64,000 nucleotides of DNA from an uncultured Gammaproteobacteria bacterium (GTDB taxonomy: Bacteria; Pseudomonadota; Gammaproteobacteria; JAKDMP01), in contig CAWJLN010000009.1 of assembly GCA_963843735.1 (NCBI GenBank), positions 398,574-462,573 on the forward strand, read 5' to 3'. This document shows, in pieces, positions 4,694 through 16,343 of this stretch. Both the position numbers and the translations under genes were made by a program. Position 1 is the first letter of the stretch, and the number at the start of each line of letters is the position of its first letter. The notes beneath the pieces were generated by a model that was not told the DNA's origin, did not search any database, and saw only the letters and a list, made by a program, of their open reading frames with translations.

Positions 4694-6988
4694 ATGCTGG
4701 ACTGGAAGGCCCGCCTGCAACAGGGGTTGCTCGCCATCACCGGCCTTGGGTTGGTGCTCGGTGGTCTGGGCTGGCTGACGTCGAACTCCGTTCTCATGGA
4801 CGGCGCATGGATCGGCGCCGTGGCCGTGACTCTCGTTGCCGTGGCGGTGGACATCGTACGCCAGCTTCGCCGCGGCAAGGTGGGAGTGGACGTGCTCGCG
4901 CTGCTGACCATGGCCGGGGCGCTGGCGCTGGGAGAATTCCTTGCCGGCGCCGTCATCGCGTTGATGGTCGCGAGCGGGCGCGCGCTAGAGGAATATGCCG
5001 GACGCCGCGCCAAGCGCGAGCTGTCGGCCTTGCTTGCTCGCCAGCCCCGCACGACGCACCGGTATGCCGACGGCGGGCTGGAGGAAATCCCGCTCGAACG
5101 CGTTCGCCCCGGCGATCGCCTGCTGGTCAGGGCCGGCGACGTGGTTCCCGTGGACGGTCTGCTGCTTTCGCCCGCGGCGGTTCTGGACGAAGCGGCACTC
5201 ACGGGTGAATCCCTGCCGGTCAACTGCGAGCAGGGTGCGGCCCTGCATAGCGGCGGCGTCAACGCGGGGCAGGCCTTCGAACTCAAGGCGCTGACGACGG
5301 CCTCCGATTCCACCTATGCCGGAATCATCCGGCTGGTGCGGGAAGCGCAGGAGGGCAAGGCCCCCTTCACGCGGCTTGCCGATCGCTATGCGCTCTGGTT
5401 CATTCCCTTGACGCTCGCCGTCGCGGGTATCGCCTGGCTGGTTTCCGCGAGTCCCGTCCGCGCGCTCGCGGTGCTCGTCGTTGCGACCCCGTGTCCTCTG
5501 ATTCTTGCCGCGCCGGTGGCAATCGTCGCCGGCATTTCGCGGGCGGCGCGGCGCGGATTCCTGATCAAGAACGGCGGCGCACTCGAGGCGCTTGCGCGGG
5601 CTCAGACCGTGATGTTCGACAAGACCGGCACTCTGACCGTTGGAACCGCGCGGCTGGTCGGCATCGAAACCGCAGGCGGCATCGCCCCCGACGAAGCGCT
5701 CCGGCTGGCGGCATCGCTGGATCAGGCTTCCCAGCACGTCTCTGCCCAGGCGCTCGTTGCCGAAGCGAAGCAACGCGGGCTGCACCTGGCGTTGCCGGAA
5801 GACATTCGGGAGACACCCGGTGCCGGCGTGGCCGGCCGGGTTGAAGGACGCGTGGTCCGTGTCGGCAGTTTCGACTGGCTGAACGGCGACGCTCCGCCCT
5901 CGGATTAGGCCCGCGGCGTGCTTCGACACATGGCAGTGCAAGGCCGATCGGGCGCCTTCGTGGAAGTGGACGGCGAGCTTTGCGCGGCCCTGCTGCTGGC
6001 CGACGACATTCGTCTCGATACCGCCCGGGCGCTGCGGGAACTGCGCCGCGCCGGCATCCGGCGCACGGTCATGGTGAGCGGCGATCGTCAGGACGTCGCC
6101 GAGACCATCGCGTTTGCCTTGGGAATCGACACGGTACTTGCCGAGTGCACGCCGGCGGACAAGGTCGCGGCGGTCGAAGCGGAACGCGCGCTGGCGCCGA
6201 CCGTCATGGTCGGCGACGGCATCAACGACGCGCCGGCACTCGCGGCGGCGGATGTCGGTGTCGCCATGGGCGCGCGCGGGGCGGCGGCGTCCGCGGAGAC
6301 CGCCGACGCCGTACTGCTGGTTGATCGTCTCGACCGTCTCGCGGAAGGCGTATTCATCGCGCGGCGCAGCCGCCGCATCGCCCTGCAGAGTGTCTTCGCC
6401 GGAATGGGTCTGTCGCTGGTCGCGATGGGTTTTGCGGCGGGCGGATTCATCGCGCCGGTATTCGGCGCGATGCTCCAGGAAGTCATAGACGTGGCGGTCA
6501 TCCTCAACGCCCTGCGCGCGGTGGCGTCGCCGCATGTGGCATCCCGCCGGCACATGATTCCCGAGGCCGCCGTAGAGCGACTGCGCACCGAGCACGATCA
6601 CCTCATGCCGTTCCTCGACCGCATTGATGCCGCCGCCCACGCCGTGAGCGGCCCCGAACCCGAGCGCGCGCGACCGGAATTGGAGGCGGTGGCGGAGATG
6701 CTCCGCACGCAACTGCTGCCGCACGAGCGCCAGGACGAGGAAAGTCTCTATCCGCAGCTCGCCGGCGTGCTGCGCGGCGCCGACCCGCTCGCCGCGATGA
6801 GCCGGACGCATCGAGAAATCTTCCATCTCGCCCGCCTTTACAGCCGGCTGCTCGAAGACCTGCCGCCGGGGCCGCTCCCGGATTTCGAACTCGGCCAGCT
6901 GCGCCGCCTGCTCTACAGCCTCGGTGCCATCCTGCGTTTGCACTTCACCCAGGAGGAAGAGATCTTCCAGGCCGCCGCACTCGATTGA
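4694..6988 (+). pseudogene. P1B-5-type heavy-metal P-type ATPase with C-terminal hemerythrin domain, interrupted by one in-frame TAG (5906-5908)
   Basis: TGES, TPCP, DKTGT, GDGINDAP and QEVID motifs; both ORF halves are in the same frame; His/Glu-rich tail (EHDHL, HERQDEE, HREI, HFTQEEE) fits hemerythrin. Confidence 0.88.
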
Positions 6989-7005
6989 GCCGACGTTCGG
7001 CCGGC

Positions 7006-7371
7006 TTATATCCAGACGTCGTTTTTCGCCGTGCGTTCGCCGCCCGCCTCTCCCGTATTCGTGACGCCGCGCGGTTCGATGAGGAGCAGCTTGACTTCGC
7101 CTTCCGCAAAGGGCTTGTGCTCGGTGCCCTTCGGAACGACAAACATCTCGCCTTCGCCGAGCCTCACGCAGCCGTCCCGGAAGTCTATACGCAGGGTTCC
7201 TTCGAGGACGATGAAGGTCTCGTCGGTGTCCTTGTGATCGTGCCAGACGAAGTCGCCCTCGATCCTCACGAGCTTGAACTGGTAGTCGTTCATCTCGGCG
7301 ACGACCTTCGGCGCCCACTGATCGTCGAAAAGGCCGAACTTCTGTTCGAAATTCACCGTTTCATAATTCAT
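7006..7371 (-). CDS. Cupin domain protein
   Basis: Start ATG 7371; GDFVWHDHKDTDETF and FVVPKGTEHKP cupin motifs. Confidence 0.85.
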   Translation of the reverse strand: MNYETVNFEQKFGLFDDQWAPKVVAEMNDYQFKLVRIEGDFVWHDHKDTDETFIVLEGTLRIDFRDGCVRLGEGEMFVVPKGTEHKPFAEGEVKLLLIEPRGVTNTGEAGGERTAKNDVWI

Positions 7372-7514
7372 GCGATCTCCTGCGTCTGGCGCCTTCGGCA
7401 GCGGGATTATAGTCCCGAATCGGCCGGCTGGCGCCGTTTGTTCCCATTCCCGCAAATGCGGAGTAGAATTCACCTGCCTCGTCCGAACCCGCTCATTCAG
7501 AGGAGTAAGTCGCC

Positions 7515-8075
7515 ATGGTCTCACTCGCCCATCTCTGGCTTCCCATTCTCGTTTCCGCCGTCGGCGTCTTTGTCGCGAGCAGCATCGTGCACATGGTTCT
7601 GAAATTCTGGCACACGCCCGACTATCGCGGCCTGTCGAACGAAGACGAAGTGGGTGCTGTCATCCGTGACGGCAATCCCGCGCCCGGCATGTACATGCTG
7701 CCGCACTGCCGCATGGAAGACATGAAAAAGCCCGAAGTTCGCGAGAAATTCGAACGCGGTCCCGTGAGCTTCATGATCCTGCGGCCGAACGGCGTGCCCA
7801 ACATGGGCAAGAGCCTGGTGCAGTGGTTCGTTTTCAGCCTGATCGTCTCGCTTTTCGCCGGCTATATTGCCGGGATCTCGCTCGGGCCGGATGCGTCCGG
7901 CATCCACGTGCTGCGAACCGTCTGGACGGTCGCCTTCATGAGCTACGGCCTCGCCGCGCTGCCCCTCGGCATCTGGTGGGGGCAGCCGTGGAGATCCGTC
8001 GCCAAGGGCGTGATCGACGGCGCGATTTACAGTCTGGTTGCCGCCGTGATCTTCGTCTGGCTCTGGCCCCACTGA
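7515..8075 (+). CDS. Hypothetical integral membrane protein (about 4 TM)
   Basis: RBS AGGAG before the ATG; hydrophobic segments; no recognised motif. Confidence 0.75.
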   Translation: MVSLAHLWLPILVSAVGVFVASSIVHMVLKFWHTPDYRGLSNEDEVGAVIRDGNPAPGMYMLPHCRMEDMKKPEVREKFERGPVSFMILRPNGVPNMGKSLVQWFVFSLIVSLFAGYIAGISLGPDASGIHVLRTVWTVAFMSYGLAALPLGIWWGQPWRSVAKGVIDGAIYSLVAAVIFVWLWPH

Positions 8076-8101
8076 GCGGTCAAACCGGAGGAGGAGGTGC
8101 C

Positions 8102-8479
8102 ATGATCGAGTTCATCGAAGGATTCCCGGAGGGAACCATTGCAATCGCCGGCAAAGGACGCGTAACGGCGGAGGACTACGACAAGGTCTTGATCCCGAAG
8201 ATCGAGGAAACCCTCGAACGTCACGGCAAGCTGAGTTTGTATTGCGAACTGGGCGAAGGGTTTTCGGGAATCGACGCGGCTGCCGTATGGAAAGACCTCA
8301 AGATCGGAGTCGCGCATCTGTCGCGTTGGGAACGCATGGCGATCGTGACCGACGTCGAATGGATCCGATTTGCGATCAACGCCTTTCGCTTCCTGATGCT
8401 GGGCCGGGTCAGAGTCTTCTCAACCGGCGACGTCTCCGAGGCCCGCGCCTGGATTGCGGCGGTGAACCCGCCCGCCTGA
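8102..8479 (+). CDS. STAS/SEC14 (SpoIIAA-like) domain protein
   Basis: Strong RBS GGAGGAGGAGG; GRVTAEDY..., WKDLKIG..., RMAIVTD..W pattern. Confidence 0.8.
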   Translation: MIEFIEGFPEGTIAIAGKGRVTAEDYDKVLIPKIEETLERHGKLSLYCELGEGFSGIDAAAVWKDLKIGVAHLSRWERMAIVTDVEWIRFAINAFRFLMLGRVRVFSTGDVSEARAWIAAVNPPA

Positions 8480-8628
8480 CCTGTGCCCATGGTCCGCGAA
8501 AGCGACGGCCCCGCTGCGACGGGCGGGGGTCTCGGCGGGCGCCGCCTCGTTCCGGGCCGGGCCCGTGCCGCCCGTTGCCGTTATTCGGGCGCATAATATC
8601 GGCATCGCCGTCCCTTGCTGAGTCCGCC

Positions 8629-9405
8629 ATGAAGCCGTCCATCTTCGCCATGTCGTTTGCCCTTTCGCTTCCCTTGGCCGTGCTGGCCAAACCGGCCGCG
8701 CAACCGGGCAGTGCGGTGACGCCGGCCTACATCGTAGCGGCCGTCAACGATCCCGCGCGTGCGGCCGACAAGGCCGACGACGCCCGCCGCAAAATTACCG
8801 CCGTGATGATCTTTGCCGAGGTCAAGCCGGGGCAGAAGGTGCTCGAACTCGTACCTGGCACGGGCTACTGGACCCGCGTATTCAGCGGCATCGTCGGGCC
8901 GAAGGGGCATGTCTATACGGTGTGGCCGGAGGAGATGGCCAAATTCTCGACCAAGCGTTTTACGCAATGGCAAAAGCTGGTTGCCACGCCGCATTACGCC
9001 AACGTCAGTCTGTTGCAGGAGCCGGCGGCGAAACTGAGCGCGCCCGAGCCGGTGGACCTGGTATTCACCGCGCAGAACTATCACGACTATCACGATCCGT
9101 TCATGGGCCCGGTTGATATGGCCGCGTTCGACAAACAGGTGTTTGCCGCGCTCAAGCCTGGCGGCCTGTTCGTGGTCATAGATCATGTCGCGCCCGCCGG
9201 ATCGGGCGTGAGCGACACCAACACCCTGCACCGCATCGATCCGGCGGTGGTGAAGAAGGAAGTGGAAGCCGCGGGCTTCGTCTTCGACGGCGCAAGCGAC
9301 GCGCTGCGCAACCCGGCCGATCCGCACACCGCCACCGTGTTCGACAAGTCCATCCGCGGTCACACCGATCAGTTCATCTATCGCTTCCGCAAGCCCGCAA
9401 AATAA
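8629..9405 (+). CDS. Class I SAM-dependent methyltransferase with signal peptide (COG4798-like)
   Basis: Start ATG 8629; VLELVPGTGYWT motif I; QNYHD; ALKPGGLFVVIDH; hydrophobic N-terminus ending AVLA. Confidence 0.82.
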   Translation: MKPSIFAMSFALSLPLAVLAKPAAQPGSAVTPAYIVAAVNDPARAADKADDARRKITAVMIFAEVKPGQKVLELVPGTGYWTRVFSGIVGPKGHVYTVWPEEMAKFSTKRFTQWQKLVATPHYANVSLLQEPAAKLSAPEPVDLVFTAQNYHDYHDPFMGPVDMAAFDKQVFAALKPGGLFVVIDHVAPAGSGVSDTNTLHRIDPAVVKKEVEAAGFVFDGASDALRNPADPHTATVFDKSIRGHTDQFIYRFRKPAK

Positions 9406-9448: not shown

Positions 9449-9718
9449 CAGTATGTGATTGGCCGACCCTTCGTGCGCCGCGCCGTGATGCATCTGCCCG
9501 CCAGCAAGACCTTCACCATTGTCGCCAAGCCCATGAGTGATGCGCATCCGTACATCGGCAAGGCATTCCTGAACGACAAGCCGCTCGATCGCACCTATTT
9601 CCGCTACCAGGACATCACCGCCAGCGGCGGACTGTGCTTCGTAATGCAGGCCAAGCCCAACAAGACCTGGAGCATCGCCGCCGACGCCCGCCCCTATTCA
9701 ATGAGCACCGTCCAATAG
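9449..9718 (+). pseudogene. C-terminal fragment of a glycoside hydrolase family 92 (alpha-mannosidase) gene
   Basis: QYVIGRPFVRRAVMHLP..KTFTIVA..HPYI...LNDKPL.R.Y...I..GG.L.FVM...PNKTW matches the GH92 C-terminus as I recall it; no upstream coding region. Confidence 0.7.
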
Positions 9719-9882
9719 CCCCACTTCGAGAGCCATTGGATCAGGATTGTCTAGCCTTCCCTTATTCCGCTTTAAACTCGGGCGGCTTTATGGGCAGCAG
9801 AGGTGTGGCTAAGATGAGTATGACAGAGTCAAACACCGCGGCTTGTAAGCCGCATTCTCACATTCTTTGTTACTTGTCTCCT

Positions 9883-10959
9883 CTACCACTCATGTTCGTT
9901 TTCTTTCGGTGCTCGACCGACCACGCGCACATAGCCATCTTCAGTTCCGAATGCTCTTACGAGGTGCTCTATCCATGACCTTGTATAGAGATAGTCCCCG
10001 TGAGGTTCATCAAAAATGCAATGTTCGCTCCGAGTTATTTCCCGCTTCGTGTCGCCATATGGAGGACGCACTTTGAAATATTTCCATGCATTGGTGTGCG
10101 CATTCATTGATATCTTGAATGGAAGTCGCTCGTTTAGCTCACGGACCACATCGCTGGGCTTGAAAAGACCGAGATTGGCGATTGGTATCCGCTTTTCTTT
10201 GATGAGGACATTCAGTTTCTCTAGCCGGTCCAATTCTTCTGAGTTAGCTTCATCAACTTTAATGAACTTGATCGAAGCGTCAGCTGCGCCCTCGCGGTTT
10301 GTCACTTTCGGGACTAAATAGACGCTGAACGAATACTTCATGCTATTTAGGACATTACCAGGCAGACCACCACGGAATTTCTCTACATAATCTTGTACGG
10401 TCTTCACCGAAGATTTCACTGATCTTTTTGAGGCTGCCTTCTTTTCAGGAGGAATCTCCTGAGAGAATTGAAGCGCAACAGCCAGCTGTTCCGTTAGCGC
10501 ATACTTATTGCCAAAGTTCGTAACTATCATTTCCTCGAGGTTTAGCAAGGCAGCTTGGCATTCGCCGTATAGCGTGGGATCTAACTCTGGGAGATAGCGA
10601 TGTTCAATTTTATTCCGAAGGCCGATCAAGAATTCTAAATTCTTTCGCTCGGCAGGGTTATTAGAGACGAAGAACTGCTTTATGCATTCCGATAGATCCC
10701 AGTGTTTTGGTTCGCCGTCTATTTTTTGATAGCGTATGCCATTTCCGGAACCTGAATCTTTTTTCCGGTACCATGGTCGTTTTCTACGCTTATAGAAAAT
10801 GGCGTGGAACAACGCTGTCCAAGCTATGACAATCATAACTAGGTATTGCGCTGTTCTGAATCGTGGACCTGGTCGGTTGTAGGCGTCTACCGCGGCAAGC
10901 GAGGCTGCCTTGCACTTTTCCAAGTTGTCCCGGACCGCTTGGGAAAGTGCTTTTGGCAT
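9883..10959 (-). CDS. DUF3644 domain protein, putative HEPN nuclease
   Basis: N-terminus SLAAVDAYNRP..FRTAQYLVMIVIAWT..FHA is DUF3644-like; RNKIEH = RX4H motif; AT-rich; start likely ATG 10959 (frame open to 11019). Confidence 0.75.
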   Translation of the reverse strand: MPKALSQAVRDNLEKCKAASLAAVDAYNRPGPRFRTAQYLVMIVIAWTALFHAIFYKRRKRPWYRKKDSGSGNGIRYQKIDGEPKHWDLSECIKQFFVSNNPAERKNLEFLIGLRNKIEHRYLPELDPTLYGECQAALLNLEEMIVTNFGNKYALTEQLAVALQFSQEIPPEKKAASKRSVKSSVKTVQDYVEKFRGGLPGNVLNSMKYSFSVYLVPKVTNREGAADASIKFIKVDEANSEELDRLEKLNVLIKEKRIPIANLGLFKPSDVVRELNERLPFKISMNAHTNAWKYFKVRPPYGDTKREITRSEHCIFDEPHGDYLYTRSWIEHLVRAFGTEDGYVRVVGRAPKENEHEW

Positions 10960-11051
10960 GCGTTCGGCCGTAATGTATGTATATCGCCTAATGCAGAAGC
11001 TCATCGGCGACAATGACATGCAGTCGAATTGCCGTCTGATGGAGCGCCTTA

Positions 11052-11450
11052 TTAAGCTGTTTCTTGTACAAGTCTAACCCTTCGATTCTTCGCTTTGTAT
11101 TTTTCTATACGTTCACGCTTCTCAAGTATGTCAATGCTCCGCATGACCCTTCTCTCAAACACCATTCTGGGATTCCCGCGTGTTAATAGTCCTACTTCTT
11201 TGAGCACGCGAGATGTCAATGAACGTAGCGTACAAGACTGATTCGGGCACCGAGACAGAGCCTGAAGGATCGCATCCTGAATTTCTGTTGCTGATATTTT
11301 TTCTGCCCGACGCCCTGATGAACTGTTGCCATTTTCCTCGCCAACTAATGAGAAGTCCTCGTTACCGTCAATGTCGTCATCATCTTCGGAAACATCGGAA
11401 TGTAGCCCGTCGCCATTCTCTTCTGCCGTATCGTCTTCGTAGGCCACATT
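11052..11450 (-). pseudogene. Frameshift-separated C-terminal segment of the helicase-nuclease (acidic linker plus small helical domain)
   Basis: Overlaps the last codons of the 1520-aa ORF; adding one G in ACC GGG CG at about 11453 joins FPSHTG to ANVAYEDD. Confidence 0.6.
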
Positions 11451-14400
11451 CGCCCGGTATGACTTGGAAAGATCTCTCGTGCTTCTAACGCTTGCCAGAG
11501 TCCAGCAAGCGCATCAACCTTGTTGGCGTAAAAGGCTGATTCCCTAACACGGAAGAACTCCCACTCGCATCGCTCTAGTTGTCTTTGACGCTGCATATCA
11601 GCTTCATAACGGTCAGGTCCATGCCAGTGGTCGCCGTCGCACTCGACTGCCAACCGTGCTGCGCCACCCTCGACTACAAGATCAATGCGCTTACCTGCAA
11701 TTTCATACTGCGGAATGACGTTAAAATCCCGCCTTGCCAGTTCCAGCGCGACATCCACCTCGAACCAACTGTCAAACGGTTTAGGGGGCTTTACAACTTG
11801 GTGATTGTCTTGGAATGCTCTCCGCTCAAGTTCCTCGCGATCAATTCCGGCGATCTGATGTGGCTTTGTGTCCTGGAAGAACTCGAGTAGTCTCCGTCGT
11901 AAATCAAAGGTACTGAGATCGTCACAAGTCACGGAATGGAAAAGGATCATCTGATCACGAGCACGGCTGGCCGCGACATTGAAACGCCGTTCATCGGCCG
12001 CCTTTGTGAATGGGCCAATCCTTTCGTTGGTCGCCGCAACCATCGATAGCAGCATGACGTCGCGTTCGTCCCCCTGGAAGCTGTACGGATTCCCGCAAAT
12101 CAAGCGTCGTCGCTCCATTTCCTCAGCGCCCAACCGCTCTAGCAACTGGCCTTCAATCAAGGTCGCTTGCGCCTCACCCTGAAGAATAACCACACCCATG
12201 GACTTATTCTTATACCGACTGTCACCGCACAGTTCTACGATCTTTTCGACGGCGGCTTTGGCCTCCAGAAGATTGATCGTCCGATTATTCGAACCTTCGC
12301 GATACCCCGCATCTACGAAGATATGTTCGAGGGGGATTAATCGGTCTGGCCCATATTGCCTCAAGGGGATCAGCGGCGTATCGGAATAGCAAAGGTCATT
12401 GCTGAAGCGGATAATCTCCGGCATGCAGCGAAAATGCTCGCGCAAAGTAATTCGTCGAGTCCCATAGCGCAGTTTCCCGTGGTCGAACAGGCTGCTCTCG
12501 ACGTCGAATGATGACTTGAACTGAAAATCGTGCAGATATTCTCCTATTAGACGATGCACTGCATCACGAGGCAACCCCACAGCCTCCGGGCTTATCTGCT
12601 TGTCATCGCCAACGATCAATATTTTCTTAGCAAGATAGAACAATGAAAGCGCCTCTACCCCGCACTGCGAAGCCTCGTCAACGATGATGACGTCGAACAT
12701 TCCCGGCGCAGGGTCCACCGTATCCCAGACCCGATGTAACGGCATTACCCATGCGGGGACCGCCTCACGGCATTGATTAAGATGCTGTTGGGCTTCTCGT
12801 CTGTGGCGCGGCGCGTGCTTTCCTGTGCCTTTTCCAAGCCGCCGCATGGACTGTTGCCAAGCTTCCATGTGACGGCGATGGTCTTCCTCGAGCCTTGAAA
12901 AACAGAACAACCAGGCATGTAGTGAAGCGAGTTTCGCGATCGTGCTACCGATCTCATCCTCAATTTGTTTGGCACGCTTGTTAAGAGCAGGAGCATCCTC
13001 CTGTCTGATGTATTCTTCGATCCAGTATCGAGCCTGTGACCAATGCCAGGCGTCTTCTATATGTAGAAGTCGTTCGTCCCAATATGGTTCGCCACAAGTT
13101 CGTTTCAAGTTATCCGTGAGGATCGGGAGAAGACTCTGTAATTTTGAAAGATATCCATCCACTCTTCGAAGGTGATGACGTTCCTTCTCTAACTCCTGAA
13201 CCTTGCTCGCACCCTGCTCGAATTCATTGATGTTGCGATCACGAATTGCGCCTAGAAATTCGCTCGTAACAGGATGCGCATCGCTGTTGTTGGCGATCGA
13301 CGATACCGGAGCCTCGATGTTTCGCAATTCCTTTCCTGCAAGCCGTTTGACGTAACTGGCCTGTGCAAGTTGACACGAGGCAATCAAGCTTTCAACCTGA
13401 GATTCGTCAGCCCAAGTAGGTTCGCCTATATCAGGACACTGATGCAACACCTTGCGGCAGTTATCAATAAGTTCATCAAGCGACAAGACCATTCCGAGAG
13501 CGTCGCACAATGACTTGAACATGCTCAGTTGCAAAGCGTAAGGTCCGTGCGTCTTATGGGATCGCTGTGCCCAAAATCCCCATGCCTTATCACACGCAAC
13601 TCGAACATGCAAAGCATCACAGAGAACGGAAAAATGTTCGATCGTGGAGCAAGGATGTCCACCAACGCGCACAATCTTGATGGCATGAAGGTGCTCTTTC
13701 ACTGCTTTGGGGCGAAATGGCCCCCAGCCCAACCCCCCGCCATTCTCCATGTGCTGTTTCAATTTGCAGGCATCTTCATAAAGTGTTCTGATATCGATCG
13801 TGGTAGAGAATTCGATACTGGTGTCGTCCGCTATTTGGATCAGCGGTTCGATGGATGCGATCGTGTCTCTCGTGACGCGGGAGAGCTCACGCCACAAGGT
13901 TGAATTGCCTGCCAAGACATCGCGCAGGGCATCACGCATCCACGCGTGCGGTGATGCCAGCAGGTTTTTGCGGGCAACTTGAAAATCTGAAAGTGTCCGA
14001 CGAATCTGCTCAATGATCGGCGTATCGCTCCGCGATAACAGATCGGCGGTACGTTCATCAGCCCCATTCGCCGAGATGTGTTCTTCCTCAATCGCCCTTG
14101 CTTCGCTTTGAACTAGATCGGAGAAATGTTGGGCGGTTGGGAGAGATTCGGGCCAAACAAGTTTCAATTCTCCGCATTTTTCCGATGTGAAGTGGCGAAG
14201 ATGGGCGAGAACGTTACGCAAATCGTTTGCAGATATCGTGCAAGTTCTATCCAGAGGGATAGTATCCGTGAACCACTTATAGGCATCACTGTCACGGTTG
14301 ACGGCTTCCGCGATTCGGGCTGCCGTGCCTTGGTAAGTTCCATTCGCAATGGATTGTGTATGCGTTTCGGATTCCCGGATGTCGCGAAGACGCCGATTGA

Positions 14401-15907
14401 CCTTGGTTTTCTCTTCCCGAAGAGTTCTGAGTCGCTCTTCAAGTTCCGTGAGTTCTTGCTTGGAACGTTCTTCATTCCACTCCGCCTTCTTGCGAAGAAT
14501 GCCGCCAACGCTGGATTCCAGTGAACGGCGTTCCTCAAGACCGCTTCCAAGTAAATTGATGCAGAGCGGGCGCAATTCAGACGGCACCAACCCTTCAAGG
14601 ACCTGGAGCGCACGCGGGGTCTTGGCCGTGATGAGTATTCGCTGTCCCGTGGCGAGCAAATGACAAATTAGATTCGCGATCGTATGAGATTTTCCCGTGC
14701 CCGGCGGCCCCTGTACAAGAACGCCGCTGGCCGACCGAATCTTGTCCACAATGTGACGTTGCTCATCGTTAGATGGCTTCGGGAAGAAGATTTCTCCATC
14801 AAATTGCCGGTCAGGCTCTTGCGGACTATCGTCCGGTTCTCGATCATCTTCCGGTCGAACTTCGGCGAGGTCCGCAAATTCTCCGGGTATGCCTTCACCG
14901 TTTTCGATCCGCTCCTTTATCCGCTTCAGGGTTTCGGTAAGGCCTTTGGCGGAACGCTTACGCAGGATCAAAGCGGGAGCGTGTTCGACTATCGGCTTTT
15001 CTGAGGCACGAACATTTTTCGCTTCCAAGGTGTCGTTATACTCGCCCTGCGAGCTGATTGAATGCACCAGCGCTTGAAGTAGGCCTTCTGTGCAGCTCTT
15101 TTCCCACGGGTTGTCGTCGGCTTGGATCAGCGAAGATTTCGCGGTTTCCTCCGCACGCGGAGGCTGTTCCGCAGGATCCAACATATCGAGTTCAGGTCTG
15201 AGTTTGGCGCCTTCGGCATGAGGGCGAATGGTGAATTTTCCCAGACGGGCTTCAAACTCCAGAATGGCATTAGCGACAATCAAGTGACGCCGAACGCGCT
15301 GTCCGCTAGGCGTCTGCCACGTCAATAGGCCTATACCGAGTACGAGTTCGTATTCCTCGCCAAGCCTAAGCTGTTCTTGATGTATCGCGAAGAGCGCGGA
15401 ATAGATCTTGTGAATTCCTTCCCACCTATTATGTTCTTCCGTCCATGGTAGCCACTTATCTTCGACGTAATGATCCCATGCGCGCCGAACTTCGGGATGT
15501 TCCTCAAGACGATCGGTAATTGATATGACTTCAGGTTGATCTGATCCTTCGCGCCAATCCGGGTTTTGCACTTGACGAGTAATTTGCTGAAGAAGTTCAG
15601 GTAAGTCGTTTTTGTTGCGAAGCGCAGACTGATTCACCCAGTCTTTACATTGAGCGGGAATGATGGGTAATTGCGGCTCTGGGCGTTTTTGCACTTCAAG
15701 CCACTCGTCCGGCTCATGTTCCTCATCGTTTCCCCATGCCTGCGTGAAGCATCCCCACTCGCGTGGAATTTCTGAAACCCAAAGTACATTCTCGTACTCT
15801 GTAACGTTTCGGATCACCTTCGTGCGCAGTAAAGCCAGCCGCGTTAAATAGTCAACGAGCCGAATGGCTTTCTGCACTACAAGGCTATGTGTTTTCCGAT
15901 CGTTCAA
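11345..15907 (-). CDS. Superfamily 1 (Dna2/Nam7/Upf1-like) helicase fused to Vsr/DUF559-like endonuclease
   Basis: QGPPGTGKS (Walker A), IIVDEASQ (Walker B), VGDDKQ, LREHFRC, SFQGDERD, RFNVAASRAR; C-terminal RIDL..LAVECDGDHWH..D..RQRQLE nuclease motif. Confidence 0.88.
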   Translation of the reverse strand: MNDRKTHSLVVQKAIRLVDYLTRLALLRTKVIRNVTEYENVLWVSEIPREWGCFTQAWGNDEEHEPDEWLEVQKRPEPQLPIIPAQCKDWVNQSALRNKNDLPELLQQITRQVQNPDWREGSDQPEVISITDRLEEHPEVRRAWDHYVEDKWLPWTEEHNRWEGIHKIYSALFAIHQEQLRLGEEYELVLGIGLLTWQTPSGQRVRRHLIVANAILEFEARLGKFTIRPHAEGAKLRPELDMLDPAEQPPRAEETAKSSLIQADDNPWEKSCTEGLLQALVHSISSQGEYNDTLEAKNVRASEKPIVEHAPALILRKRSAKGLTETLKRIKERIENGEGIPGEFADLAEVRPEDDREPDDSPQEPDRQFDGEIFFPKPSNDEQRHIVDKIRSASGVLVQGPPGTGKSHTIANLICHLLATGQRILITAKTPRALQVLEGLVPSELRPLCINLLGSGLEERRSLESSVGGILRKKAEWNEERSKQELTELEERLRTLREEKTKVNRRLRDIRESETHTQSIANGTYQGTAARIAEAVNRDSDAYKWFTDTIPLDRTCTISANDLRNVLAHLRHFTSEKCGELKLVWPESLPTAQHFSDLVQSEARAIEEEHISANGADERTADLLSRSDTPIIEQIRRTLSDFQVARKNLLASPHAWMRDALRDVLAGNSTLWRELSRVTRDTIASIEPLIQIADDTSIEFSTTIDIRTLYEDACKLKQHMENGGGLGWGPFRPKAVKEHLHAIKIVRVGGHPCSTIEHFSVLCDALHVRVACDKAWGFWAQRSHKTHGPYALQLSMFKSLCDALGMVLSLDELIDNCRKVLHQCPDIGEPTWADESQVESLIASCQLAQASYVKRLAGKELRNIEAPVSSIANNSDAHPVTSEFLGAIRDRNINEFEQGASKVQELEKERHHLRRVDGYLSKLQSLLPILTDNLKRTCGEPYWDERLLHIEDAWHWSQARYWIEEYIRQEDAPALNKRAKQIEDEIGSTIAKLASLHAWLFCFSRLEEDHRRHMEAWQQSMRRLGKGTGKHAPRHRREAQQHLNQCREAVPAWVMPLHRVWDTVDPAPGMFDVIIVDEASQCGVEALSLFYLAKKILIVGDDKQISPEAVGLPRDAVHRLIGEYLHDFQFKSSFDVESSLFDHGKLRYGTRRITLREHFRCMPEIIRFSNDLCYSDTPLIPLRQYGPDRLIPLEHIFVDAGYREGSNNRTINLLEAKAAVEKIVELCGDSRYKNKSMGVVILQGEAQATLIEGQLLERLGAEEMERRRLICGNPYSFQGDERDVMLLSMVAATNERIGPFTKAADERRFNVAASRARDQMILFHSVTCDDLSTFDLRRRLLEFFQDTKPHQIAGIDREELERRAFQDNHQVVKPPKPFDSWFEVDVALELARRDFNVIPQYEIAGKRIDLVVEGGAARLAVECDGDHWHGPDRYEADMQRQRQLERCEWEFFRVRESAFYANKVDALAGLWQALEAREIFPSHTGRMWPTKTIRQKRMATGYIPMFPKMMTTLTVTRTSH

Positions 15908-16343
15908 GAATGCCCCGTCCCTGATTTTTCAGGCTAATGCCAACTAGACCTTAATGTGACACCTGATAAGGCGTATTGACGCATAGCTTAAGTATAGTCG
16001 CTATGTGTCATTTTTGGGATCGAAACGGTCATGAAACATGAAGGGATTAGCTGTTAGAACATAAAAGTCTTGAAATCACTGCTTTTTGGGGCGCTGTCGG
16101 TCGTTATGAATCTGCTGTATTCCGTTTGCCGAGGTTGGCCGGGCGATTCATATGGCGATCGGTTTGGGGTTGAGCGGCGGCGCCTGAGCAGGCGCGACCT
16201 TCCCCACCACCCGCGTCCGCATGGGTAGCGTCGTGCAGGCATCCTGGTTGCCTGCGGGGAAGACTATAAAGGCAGGCATTAATATACGCATAAGGAAGCT
16301 TTGCTTTAGGCGTAGCCGATGAACCCGATCGAGGGAACGCCGG

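What the first reader, a model, noticed from the sequence alone, without database searches (positions are those of the whole stretch)
9883..15907. Candidate two-gene defence module: SF1 helicase-Vsr-like nuclease plus DUF3644 HEPN protein
Two co-oriented AT-rich genes, 92 bp apart once the frameshifted tail is counted, are inserted among housekeeping genes. Gene 1 has all SF1 helicase motifs and a C-terminal Vsr/DUF559-like nuclease, an architecture related to the Hhe (DUF4011-helicase-Vsr) defence protein, but I see no DUF4011 here. Gene 2 carries RNKIEH, an RX4H motif typical of HEPN RNases. A sensor helicase-DNase paired with an RNase effector is a plausible anti-phage design. I do not recognise this pair as a named system; pairing and function are inference.
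Basis: partly seen in the sequence, partly recalled or inferred. Interest (0 to 1): 0.7.

Follow-up and report, generated by a model that had tools for sequence, protein, structure and literature searches.

The report
Two unrelated integron defence cassettes, adjacent
The two genes are real and look like anti-phage or anti-plasmid genes, but they are two independent integron gene cassettes that landed side by side, not a new two-gene immune system.

Summary
A low-GC island (about 9.7-16.1 kb) carries a 1520-codon SF1B helicase with a Vsr-type MTES_1575 nuclease. Its C-terminal winged-helix tail is detached by a frameshift. A DUF3644/HEPN gene with an invariant Rx4H motif follows 92 bp later.

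The two-gene-module interpretation does not hold. None of 56 genomic loci with a DUF3644 relative has the helicase within 10 kb. Only one independent locus among 82 helicase loci has a DUF3644 gene; it is a 31%-identical paralogue, in the opposite gene order.

The 92-bp gap is an integron attC site. It is the only significant attC hit in the 64-kb window with two covariance models. In other genomes both genes are bounded by attC sites, with flanks diverging exactly at G|TT, and the helicase often sits beside an integron integrase. The host has its own integron about 157 kb away. The window's attC keeps its hairpin but reads AAT/ATT instead of AAC/GTT, so it is probably immobile.

Gene 2 is a full-length match to the PADLOC single-gene candidate PDC-S19. 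Gene 1 belongs to a large unnamed sister family of Hhe, ProA and PDC-S37.

Verdict: new members of known kinds. Co-orientation and tight spacing come from cassette-array structure, not from an operon.

The parts
9719..16100 (.). Low-GC foreign island between a GH92 gene remnant and ppc
   Evidence: GC is 0.46-0.55 against 0.60-0.70 in the flanks. Both genes are absent from 40 relatives. No tRNA, no flanking direct repeats and no integrase in the island.
11345..15907 (-). Gene 1 main ORF (1520 aa, TTG start): N-terminal domain of unknown fold, SF1B Upf1-like helicase with a ~550-aa insert, and a Vsr-type nuclease
   Evidence: Pfam AAA_11, AAA_12 and MTES_1575. Relatives are 72-78% identical across phyla. 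The PDB profile search finds Sen1, Upf1, DNA2 and IGHMBP2 helicase cores. Several relatives are called with a start at this same codon (alignment).
14783..15907 (-). Gene 1 N-terminal domain (residues 1-375), no Pfam family
   Evidence: No Pfam hit at E<=10. It matches 1501 clusters (50% identity), nearly always at the N-terminus of 1450-2000-aa proteins with the same helicase-nuclease layout.
14687..14710 (-). Walker A GPPGTGKS (residues 400-407)
   Evidence: Invariant in alignment A2.
12665..12679 (-). Helicase motif II DEASQ (residues 1077-1081)
   Evidence: Invariant in alignment A2.
11486..11764 (-). Vsr-type PD-(D/E)xK nuclease, Pfam PF18741 MTES_1575 REase (residues 1382-1474), containing ECDG at 11633-11644
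   Evidence: Pfam E 1.9e-26, 92.4 bits against a cut-off of 38.2. E1422, C1423, D1424 and G1425 are invariant.
11440..11465 (-). Zone of the 1-nt frameshift that separates the nuclease from the tail
   Evidence: The frame changes between ...EAREIFPS and YEDDTAEE.... Intact relatives read through. The tail is in frame in 57 of 58 related loci that have one.
11052..11447 (-). Detached tail ORF: acidic linker plus a winged-helix-like C-terminal module (about 11055-11315)
   Evidence: It aligns with the C-terminus of the ~1620-aa relatives. No Pfam family matches it. In relatives this module is swapped for a GreA/GreB C-terminal domain, or is absent.
10986..11057 (-). Integron attC site of the helicase cassette. 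It is a pseudo-attC: the hairpin is kept but the core triplets read AAT/ATT instead of AAC/GTT. It contains the TAA stop of gene 1
   Evidence: It is the only significant hit in the window with model R1 (40.4 bits, E 3.6e-7). The same holds for control model R2, built without its close relatives (30.4 bits, E 5.6e-5; next best 17.2 bits). It is homologous to the attC after the helicase in L063/64/66/67/78/81/85, whose flanks diverge right after GTT. It folds with R'' paired to R'.
9883..10959 (-). Gene 2 (358 aa from the ATG at 10959): DUF3644 HEPN protein, PADLOC PDC-S19
   Evidence: PDLC04950 E 6e-123 over 347 of 353 model positions. Relatives are 354 aa and start at MPK. The start lies 26 nt after the R'-like ATTAGGC, as in cassette-borne relatives L038, L046 and L013.
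10369..10923 (-). DUF3644 / HEPN domain, with the Rx4H motif RNKIEH at 10600-10617
   Evidence: Pfam PF12358 E 4.8e-49. R and H are invariant in 32 sequences down to 29% identity. Foldseek matches HepT, SO_3166 and AF_0298 with probability up to 0.97 and TM 0.56-0.62 normalised by the target, but E>=0.08. DUF3644 is assigned to HEPN in PMC3710099.
9886..10368 (-). Gene 2 C-terminal domain, function unknown
   Evidence: No Pfam hit at E<=10. The AF2 model is confident only for residues 262-350. The fold is unassigned.
15932..15938 (-). Tentative 5' cassette boundary ATTAGCC, 24 nt before the TTG start
   Evidence: Relatives have G|TTAGGC 28 nt before the equivalent codon, where unrelated flanks converge. 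In the window this is only a 7-mer resemblance, not a tested match.
9719..9882 (-). Region after gene 2 where its own attC would be expected; none is recognisable
   Evidence: No hit with R1 or R2 at E<=10 with filters off. No attC-like fold. No similarity to related loci.

Best explanation
The island holds two independent integron gene cassettes fossilised next to each other outside the host's integron. Each encodes a stand-alone candidate defence protein.

Cassette 1 encodes a ~1620-aa SF1B (Upf1/Sen1-like) helicase fused to a Vsr-type PD-(D/E)xK nuclease. It has a conserved N-terminal domain of unknown fold and an exchangeable C-terminal adaptor.
- Inferred mechanism: the N-domain or adaptor engages a foreign nucleic acid or transcription complex, the motor translocates 5'->3', and the nuclease cuts DNA.
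- In this copy a frameshift detaches the winged-helix adaptor.

Cassette 2 encodes a PDC-S19 protein.
- Inferred mechanism: its HEPN Rx4H site cleaves RNA once triggered. This gives growth arrest, abortive infection or plasmid loss, as shown for other DUF3644 proteins (HEC-08, Ishtar).

Shown here: the domain content, the cassette structure in relatives, the attC in the gap, and the lack of conserved pairing. Inferred: the biochemical activities and the defence role. The co-orientation and the 92-bp spacing are by-products of head-to-tail cassette arrays.
For: No conserved pairing:
- tblastn of gene 1 finds nothing in 56 DUF3644 loci with up to 10 kb of flank on each side.
- Gene 2 relatives occur in 2 of 82 helicase loci. 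These are L079 and L104, the same sequence from one study. The relative is 31% identical, belongs to another PDC-S19 sub-model, lies upstream rather than downstream, and is separated from the helicase by an attC.
- Neither gene has a neighbour cluster recurring in more than 14 of 82 loci (helicase) or 5 of 56 loci (DUF3644).
- Three further helicase contexts lack DUF3644.

Cassette nature:
- About 14 unrelated upstream contexts converge at G|TTAGGCCGATGAACGC-ATG.
- Downstream, the stop codon lies in R'' and flanks diverge after GTT.
- The attC structure has 85.6% of cells paired against at most 42% when slid, and 14 pairs with compensatory changes.
- Covariance-model hits: 62 of 63 are on the gene's strand in helicase loci, across about 32 loci. 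All 33 are on the gene's strand in DUF3644 loci, across 8 loci.
- Full-length integron integrase genes lie beside the helicase in L061, L071, L075, L078, L103 and L128.

In the window:
- A single attC sits exactly in the gap.
- The host has intI (475 bits against a cut-off of 265) and at least 5 attC sites about 157 kb away.

Defence context:
- PDC-S19 at 6e-123.
- Helicase neighbours include type I/II R-M, Kiwa, and PDC-S11/14/18.
- Integron cassettes are known to carry defence systems, and a relative outside an integron with a pseudo-attC mismatched at the crossover has been described (bioRxiv 10.1101/2024.07.02.601719).
Against: - Helicase and DUF3644 genes are adjacent twice independently (the window and L104). 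A protein fusing a HEPN domain (Swt1/Abi2 type) to an SF1 helicase, this Vsr nuclease and wHTH domains exists (MTES_1575, PMC3710099). A looser functional affinity therefore cannot be excluded.
- No attC was found after gene 2, and the 5' boundary of cassette 1 is only a 7-mer resemblance. The two-cassette reading in the window rests on one attC plus homology to cassettes elsewhere.
- No defence phenotype has been measured for either family member.
- Sampling is limited: 56 and 82 loci, many with short flanks. 48 of the 82 helicase loci have at least 1.5 kb downstream.
Confidence: 0.8

Rival explanations
1. The two genes form a functional two-gene defence module. The helicase-nuclease senses invader nucleic acid and activates or cooperates with the HEPN RNase.
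For: - They are co-oriented and 92 bp apart in the window.
- A second, independent adjacency exists in L104/L079, with a different PDC-S19 subfamily and an 80-bp gap.
- HEPN is fused to an SF1 helicase, an MTES_1575 nuclease and wHTH domains in the MTES_1575 protein (PMC3710099).
Against: - 0 of 56 and 1 independent locus of 82 co-occur.
- Gene order is reversed between the two cases, and an attC separates the genes in both.
- PDC-S19 is no more frequent next to the helicase than PDC-S11, S14, S18, Kiwa or R-M.
- Both families are overwhelmingly found alone.
Confidence: 0.07
2. The island is a decaying relic. Gene 1 is a pseudogene, the cassettes can no longer move, and the locus gives the present host little or no defence.
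For: - A frameshift detaches the tail; the tail is in frame in 57 of 58 related loci.
- Both attC core triplets are non-canonical (AAT/ATT).
- No attC follows gene 2.
- No sigma-70-like promoter lies upstream of either gene, and there is no integron Pc here.
- A neighbouring gene is truncated.
Against: - Natural tail-less forms of the helicase exist as clean cassettes, for example L116/L117 with an attC about 35 nt after the stop. The truncated protein may therefore still work.
- Gene 2 is intact and keeps every invariant residue.
- The frameshift could be an assembly error in this 13-contig MAG.
- The promoter scan only covers sigma-70 consensus promoters.
Confidence: 0.3
3. The genes are not immune genes. 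They are selfish or addiction-type cargo, for example a HEPN toxin that stabilises cassette arrays and a helicase-nuclease serving the mobile DNA itself.
For: - Both travel as integron cassettes.
- HEPN toxins are common in toxin-antitoxin modules (PMC3710099).
- The ~75% protein identity of gene 1 across phyla is unusually high for a defence gene.
Against: - No antitoxin-like partner is conserved beside gene 2.
- The neighbours are defence-rich.
- DUF3644 proteins HEC-08 and Ishtar have measured anti-phage and anti-plasmid activity that depends on the HEPN histidine (bioRxiv 10.1101/2024.01.29.577857; 10.64898/2026.07.06.735840).
Confidence: 0.1

Closest known systems
PADLOC PDC-S19 (single-gene phage defence candidate; DUF3644 proteins, the EC042_2821 HEPN family of Anantharaman et al. 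2013)
   Same: Gene 2 gives a full-length match to sub-model PDLC04950 (6e-123, 347 of 353 positions). It has an invariant Rx4H motif, occurs as a single gene, sits in variable and often R-M-rich neighbourhoods, and has a HEPN-like predicted fold.
   Different: Nothing structural. PDC-S19 is a candidate family, and no experimental test of this subfamily was found in the literature library. This copy is cassette-derived.
HEC-08 (Payne et al. 2024 preprint) and Ishtar Ist1/Ist2 (2026 preprint): validated DUF3644/DUF4145 HEPN single-gene defences
   Same: They share an N-terminal DUF3644 HEPN domain with the Rx4-6H motif and act as single genes. Ishtar genes are also reported in integrons, and Foldseek gives the same SO_3166 match as was reported for HEC-08.
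Hhe (Gao et al. 2020; NCBIfam NF042953), ProA (NF058533) and PADLOC PDC-S37: single-protein helicase + Vsr-nuclease defence proteins
   Same: Gene 1 has the same chassis: an SF1 helicase, an MTES_1575/Vsr-type nuclease and a C-terminal DNA-binding tail. The match to PDC-S37 is collinear (383-1547 against 298-1400 of 1550).
   Different: It has no DUF4011 and a different ~375-aa N-terminal domain. Scores are far below the equivalog cut-offs: Hhe 124 against 2000, ProA 208 against 1500. It belongs to a separate large family (1501 clusters at 50% identity) with exchangeable C-terminal modules.
Integron gene cassettes carrying defence systems, and pseudo-attC relics outside integrons (Kieffer et al., 'Mobile integrons encode phage defense systems')
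   Same: The ORF is followed by an attC, boundaries fall at G|TT, arrays are head-to-tail on one strand, and an integrase lies nearby in several relatives. A copy outside the integron has an attC mismatched at the crossover point.
   Different: The helicase cassette is about 4.9 kb. This is above the 4-kb attC spacing at which another study inferred loss of mobility (bioRxiv 10.64898/2026.03.17.712381). Here both core triplets changed in a compensatory way.

Membership tests
PDC-S19 (PADLOC) | Full-length match to a PDC-S19 HMM | tested here: met
   PDLC04950 E 6e-123, 408.6 bits, residues 21-373 against model positions 1-347 of 353.
PDC-S19 (PADLOC) | Single-gene system, with no obligate partner | tested here: met
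   No neighbour cluster occurs in more than 5 of 56 loci.
HEPN superfamily | Conserved Rx4-6H motif | tested here: met
   In RNKIEH, R and H are invariant in 26 and in 32 sequences, down to 29% identity.
HEPN superfamily | Four-helix up-down HEPN fold | tested here: inconclusive
   The AF2 model has pLDDT 73.5. Foldseek matches HepT, SO_3166, AF_0298 and sacsin HEPN with probability up to 0.97 and TM 0.56-0.62 normalised by the target, but no hit reaches E<=0.001.
Hhe | N-terminal DUF4011 | tested here: not met
   No PF13195 hit in the whole protein, nor in the N-terminal 395 aa at E<=10, nor in five distant family members.
Hhe | NCBIfam equivalog score (NF042953, cut-off 2000 bits) | tested here: not met
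   123.7 bits for the intact relative P0128.
Hhe | SF1 helicase fused to a Vsr-type nuclease in one protein | tested here: met
   AAA_11, AAA_12 and MTES_1575.
ProA (NF058533) | Equivalog score (cut-off 1500 bits) | tested here: not met
   208.5 bits, residues 370-1490 against model positions 641-1719 of 1903.
PDC-S37 (PADLOC) | Match to the PDC-S37 HMM over most of its length | tested here: inconclusive
   The window protein scores 5e-55 in two stretches. The intact relative scores 4.7e-57 in one collinear stretch covering 71% of the model, but only 192 bits, with the first ~300 model positions unmatched. No curated cut-off is available in this tool.
Integron gene cassette | attC site after the ORF, with paired R''/R' and L''/L' boxes | tested here: met
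   Window 10986-11057: 40.4 bits with R1 and 30.4 bits with R2, full-length model match. Relatives.
Integron gene cassette | Canonical core triplets AAC (R'') and GTT (R') at the crossover | tested here: not met
   The window reads GCTTAAT...ATTAGGC. The triplets are canonical in relatives. The window site is therefore a pseudo-attC.
Integron gene cassette | Cassette boundaries at G|TT, shared between unrelated contexts | tested here: met
   Met for relatives of both genes. In the window the 3' boundary of cassette 1, which is also the 5' boundary of cassette 2, is homologous to these. The outer boundaries are unresolved.
Integron gene cassette | Integron integrase adjacent to the array | tested here: not met
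   In the window the host intI is about 157 kb away. The feature is met for helicase relatives in L061, L071, L075, L078, L103 and L128.
HEC-08 | [quoted passage not shown] | tested here: not met
   Only one conserved Cys (C314 in M21 numbering) in the C-terminal domain.
Ishtar (Ist1/Ist2) | Sequence or structural homology of the C-terminal alpha/beta domain | not testable with these tools
Only the general layout, an N-terminal HEPN domain plus a C-terminal domain, agrees.

The most novel reading that the evidence does not exclude
The helicase-nuclease family of gene 1 polices transcription. It would be a Sen1/Upf1-like motor plus DNA nuclease that docks onto RNA polymerase or promoter DNA through an exchangeable C-terminal adaptor, and destroys the template of invading DNA. 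The adaptor is a winged helix in most members, a GreA/GreB C-terminal domain in 74%-identical relatives, and sigma-70 regions 2-4 or 1.1, or DUF3320, in distant ones. On this reading the family spreads between phyla as an exceptionally large (~4.9 kb) integron cassette, and the window copy has lost its adaptor by frameshift.
Probability: 0.2. Interest if true: 0.75.

Novelty: new member of a known kind. Interest (0 to 1): 0.3.

Why it matters
The result guards against a common false positive in defence-system discovery. In and near integrons, tight spacing and co-orientation are structural features of cassette arrays and say nothing about functional coupling.

It adds one more instance of defence-type cassettes stranded outside the integron with a pseudo-attC. 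It also adds to the evidence that a large, unstudied helicase-nuclease family moves between phyla as a ~4.9-kb cassette, which is at or beyond the size thought compatible with integrase-mediated mobility.

Neither protein family has been tested experimentally in this subfamily, so both remain reasonable targets for a defence screen.

Tried and rejected
- **Conserved pairing.** Tested from both sides and rejected.
- **Another conserved partner for either gene.** None found by clustering neighbour ORFs.
- **DUF4011 or any Pfam family in the gene 1 N-domain, the ~550-aa helicase insert, the tail, or the gene 2 C-terminal domain.** No hits at E<=10.
- **Programmed frameshift at the acidic linker.** Rejected: the tail is in frame in 57 of 58 related loci that have one.
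- **Loss of the ATG start as a second lesion in gene 1.** Rejected: several relatives are called from the same TTG/GTG/ATG codon, with a GGAG-like motif upstream.
- **Island mobility marks.** No tRNA, no flanking direct or inverted repeats of note, and no shared non-coding DNA beyond the attC.
- **My regex-plus-folding attC scanner.** It was unspecific, giving 244 hits on the + strand and 267 on the - strand. It was replaced by covariance models R1 and R2, which gave strand-specific hits.
- **attC after gene 2.** Not found.
- **Promoters.** No sigma-70-type promoter upstream of either gene.
- **Rfam.** Nothing between 9 and 17 kb.
- **AF2 models of gene 2.** The first was poor (pLDDT 61). The second, with a more diverse alignment, was better (73.5), but the region 160-260 and the fold of the C-terminal domain stay unresolved.
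- **Literature.** No hits for 'PDC-S19' or 'anti-phage protein ProA'.
- **Structure of the gene 1 N-domain.** Not attempted.


Full report
**1. Observation**

- The region 10.0-16.0 kb has GC 0.46-0.55, against 0.60-0.70 around it.
- It contains two long minus-strand ORFs, 11345-15907 (1520 aa) and 9883-11019, plus a 131-aa ORF at 11052-11447 in another frame.
- Gene 1 has Pfam AAA_11, AAA_12 and PF18741 MTES_1575 REase.
- Walker A GPPGTGKS, DEASQ and the nuclease motif ECDG are invariant in relatives.
- No DUF4011 is detectable.
- The 131-aa ORF aligns with the C-terminal acidic linker and winged-helix-like tail of intact ~1620-aa relatives. A 1-nt frameshift at about 11440-11465 has therefore detached the tail.
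- In 57 of 58 related loci with a tail, the tail is in frame. This is a lesion or an assembly error, not a programmed shift.
- Gene 2 carries DUF3644 and starts at the ATG at 10959, like its 354-aa relatives.
- R and H of its RNKIEH motif are invariant down to 29% identity.
- Both genes are absent from 40 genomes of the same family and class.

**2. Is it a pair?**

*From the DUF3644 side.* A scan of one genome per species returned 56 loci with up to 10 kb of flank on each side. tblastn with gene 1 and its tail found nothing, even at E<1. Clustering of neighbour ORFs showed no partner in more than 5 of 56 loci. The most frequent neighbours were a PLD/SNF2-type helicase and type I R-M methylases.

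*From the helicase side.*
- I examined 80 metagenome loci plus two long contigs. Only L079 and L104 hold a DUF3644 gene, and these are the same sequence from one study.
- That gene is 31% identical to gene 2 and matches a different PDC-S19 sub-model (PDLC04948). It lies upstream of the helicase rather than downstream.
- No other neighbour recurs in more than 14 of 82 loci.
- Among 110 neighbour ORFs of 23 non-redundant helicase loci, PDC-S19 appears once. This is no more often than PDC-S11, S14, S18, Kiwa or R-M components.

**3. What the gap is**

- DNA similarity between the window and several helicase loci runs about 55 nt past the stop codon.
- The shared element is an imperfect palindrome. 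It begins with the stop codon inside ...TAAC and ends in GTT. Immediately after that, otherwise near-identical loci (L066, L067, L078, L081, L085) diverge completely.
- Upstream, about 14 unrelated contexts converge at G|TTAGGCCGATGAACGC-ATG, often straight after a complete palindrome of the same kind.
- This is the anatomy of integron gene cassettes: an attC with R'' RYYYAAC and R' GTTRRRY, and crossover at G|TT.
- I aligned 21 such sites. The proposed attC structure has 85.6% of cells paired, against at most 42% when slid, and 14 pairs with compensatory changes.
- A covariance model built from them (R1) gives exactly one significant hit in the 64-kb window: 10986-11057 on the minus strand, 40.4 bits, E 3.6e-7. 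This is the 92-bp gap.
- A control model without the closely related sites (R2) finds the same single site, at 30.4 bits and E 5.6e-5. The next best hit scores 17.2 bits.
- Across the helicase loci, 62 of 63 model hits lie on the gene's strand, in about 32 loci. Across the DUF3644 loci, all 33 hits lie on the gene's strand, in 8 loci.
- Relatives of gene 2 also have an attC ending 20-26 nt before their ATG, as the window does.
- Full-length integron integrase genes, 47-56% identical to the host's, flank the helicase cassette in L061, L071, L075, L078, L103 and L128. In L075 and L103 the helicase is the first cassette.
- The host genome has a true intI (TIGR02249, 475 bits against a cut-off of 265) with at least five attC sites about 157 kb from the island on the same contig.

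**4. State of the window copy**

- The attC still folds with R'' paired to R', but reads GCTTAAT...ATTAGGC. Both conserved triplets have changed, AAC to AAT and GTT to ATT, in a way that keeps the base pair.
- A mismatch at the crossover point in a defence cassette found outside an integron has been described and judged non-recombinogenic (bioRxiv 10.1101/2024.07.02.601719).
- No attC is recognisable after gene 2.
- The 5' boundary of the helicase cassette is only a 7-mer resemblance, ATTAGCC at 15932-15938.
- I found no sigma-70-like promoter upstream of either gene.
- The locus is best described as two cassettes stranded outside the integron, probably immobile. Gene 1 is damaged and gene 2 is intact.

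**5. What the genes are**

*Gene 2.*
- It is a full-length member of PADLOC PDC-S19 (6e-123).
- DUF3644 was assigned to the HEPN superfamily as the EC042_2821 family, reported in R-M operons (PMC3710099).
- Two DUF3644 proteins have measured activity. HEC-08 is anti-phage and is abolished by the HEPN His mutation (bioRxiv 10.1101/2024.01.29.577857). Ishtar causes plasmid loss and is also found in integrons (bioRxiv 10.64898/2026.07.06.735840).
- My second AF2 model (pLDDT 73.5) gives Foldseek matches to HepT, SO_3166, AF_0298 and sacsin HEPN, with probability up to 0.97 but weak E-values.
- The C-terminal domain has no assignable family.

*Gene 1.*
- It belongs to a large family. Its N-domain matches 1501 clusters at 50% identity, almost always at the N-terminus of 1450-2000-aa helicase-nuclease proteins.
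- It is collinear with PDC-S37 over the helicase, nuclease and tail, but at low score. It falls far below the Hhe and ProA equivalog cut-offs.
- The helicase core is Upf1/Sen1/DNA2-like.
- The C-terminal module is exchangeable:
  - winged helix in most members;
  - GreA/GreB C-terminal domain in 74%-identical relatives;
  - absent in clean short cassettes such as L116;
  - DUF3320, or sigma-70 regions 2-4 or 1.1, in distant members.
- This module swapping motivates the transcription-policing reading, which remains speculative.

**6. Mechanism, with status**

Shown:
- domain content and invariant catalytic motifs;
- cassette structure in relatives;
- the attC in the gap;
- the lack of conserved pairing.

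Inferred from established knowledge of the families:
- For gene 1, ATP-driven 5'->3' translocation by the SF1B core and DNA cleavage by the Vsr-type PD-(D/E)xK domain, targeted by the N-domain and the C-terminal adaptor.
- For gene 2, RNA cleavage at the composite HEPN Rx4H site after an unknown trigger, giving growth arrest or plasmid or phage loss.

Not shown: any defence phenotype, expression in this host, or interaction between the two proteins.

**7. Earlier notes of this scan**

I consulted these only after searches had established the cassette structure. They independently describe the following:
- the same helicase family as a large integron cassette (e1-2529175);
- the same family as a stand-alone Hhe/ProA sister family with exchangeable tails (e1-1155910, e1-4118527, e1-4967994, e1-1386912);
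- the host's integron (e1-2779294).

I treat them as leads. The points I rely on were re-tested here.

**8. Verdict**

- The features are real. The two-gene-system interpretation is not supported.
- Novelty is low: these are new members of a catalogued candidate family and of an unnamed sister family of known single-protein defences, in a known kind of genetic context.
- Interest is 0.3. The residual interest lies in the size and mobility of the ~4.9-kb cassette, the compensatory pseudo-attC, and the untested helicase-nuclease family.

Noticed in passing
window 9455-9718 (+): An 87-aa ORF is the C-terminal remnant of a GH92 glycoside hydrolase (Pfam positions 400-463 of 464, E 1.6e-10). The gene has lost about 650 N-terminal codons, so there has been a deletion or rearrangement next to the island.
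   Followed up: partly
window 4694-6988 (+), stop at 5906-5908: A P-type ATPase (E1-E2 ATPase + HAD hydrolase + C-terminal hemerythrin domain) is split by an in-frame TAG. The two ORFs are in the same frame. This is either a nonsense mutation or a sequencing error.
   Followed up: no
L104:8923-14910 (and L079): In another cassette array a PDC-S19 gene of a different subfamily (PDLC04948, 6e-154) directly precedes the helicase cassette, separated from it by an attC (L104:9910-9969). This is the reverse order of the window.
   Followed up: yes
L075:8865-14911; L103:2655-8831: The ~4.9-kb helicase cassette is the first cassette next to a divergently oriented integron integrase gene. The attC spacing exceeds the 4 kb at which a 2026 preprint inferred loss of cassette mobility, yet the same cassette occurs in about 14 different contexts.
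   Followed up: partly
proteins P0176, P0131 (GreA/GreB C-terminal domain at 1522-1593 and 1539-1609); P0255 (Sigma70 r2-r4 at 1733-1954); P0300 (Sigma70 r1.1 at 7-82, DUF3320): The C-terminal (and once the N-terminal) module of the helicase-nuclease family is swapped for RNA-polymerase-binding domains in some members.
   Followed up: partly
window 10986-11057 (-): Both conserved attC triplets changed together (AAC to AAT, GTT to ATT), which preserves the base pair. This could be chance (two transitions), hairpin-templated repair, or selection on the hairpin for another role.
   Followed up: no
own genome C9:250357-253881: The host carries a complete integron: intI (475 bits) plus at least five attC sites of 57-72 nt, about 157 kb from the island on the same contig.
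   Followed up: partly
window 7000-9400: This stretch has intermediate GC (0.59-0.62). It has overlapping ORFs on both strands without Pfam hits and a weak methyltransferase-like ORF (8242-9405). It may be another acquired or degraded segment.
   Followed up: no
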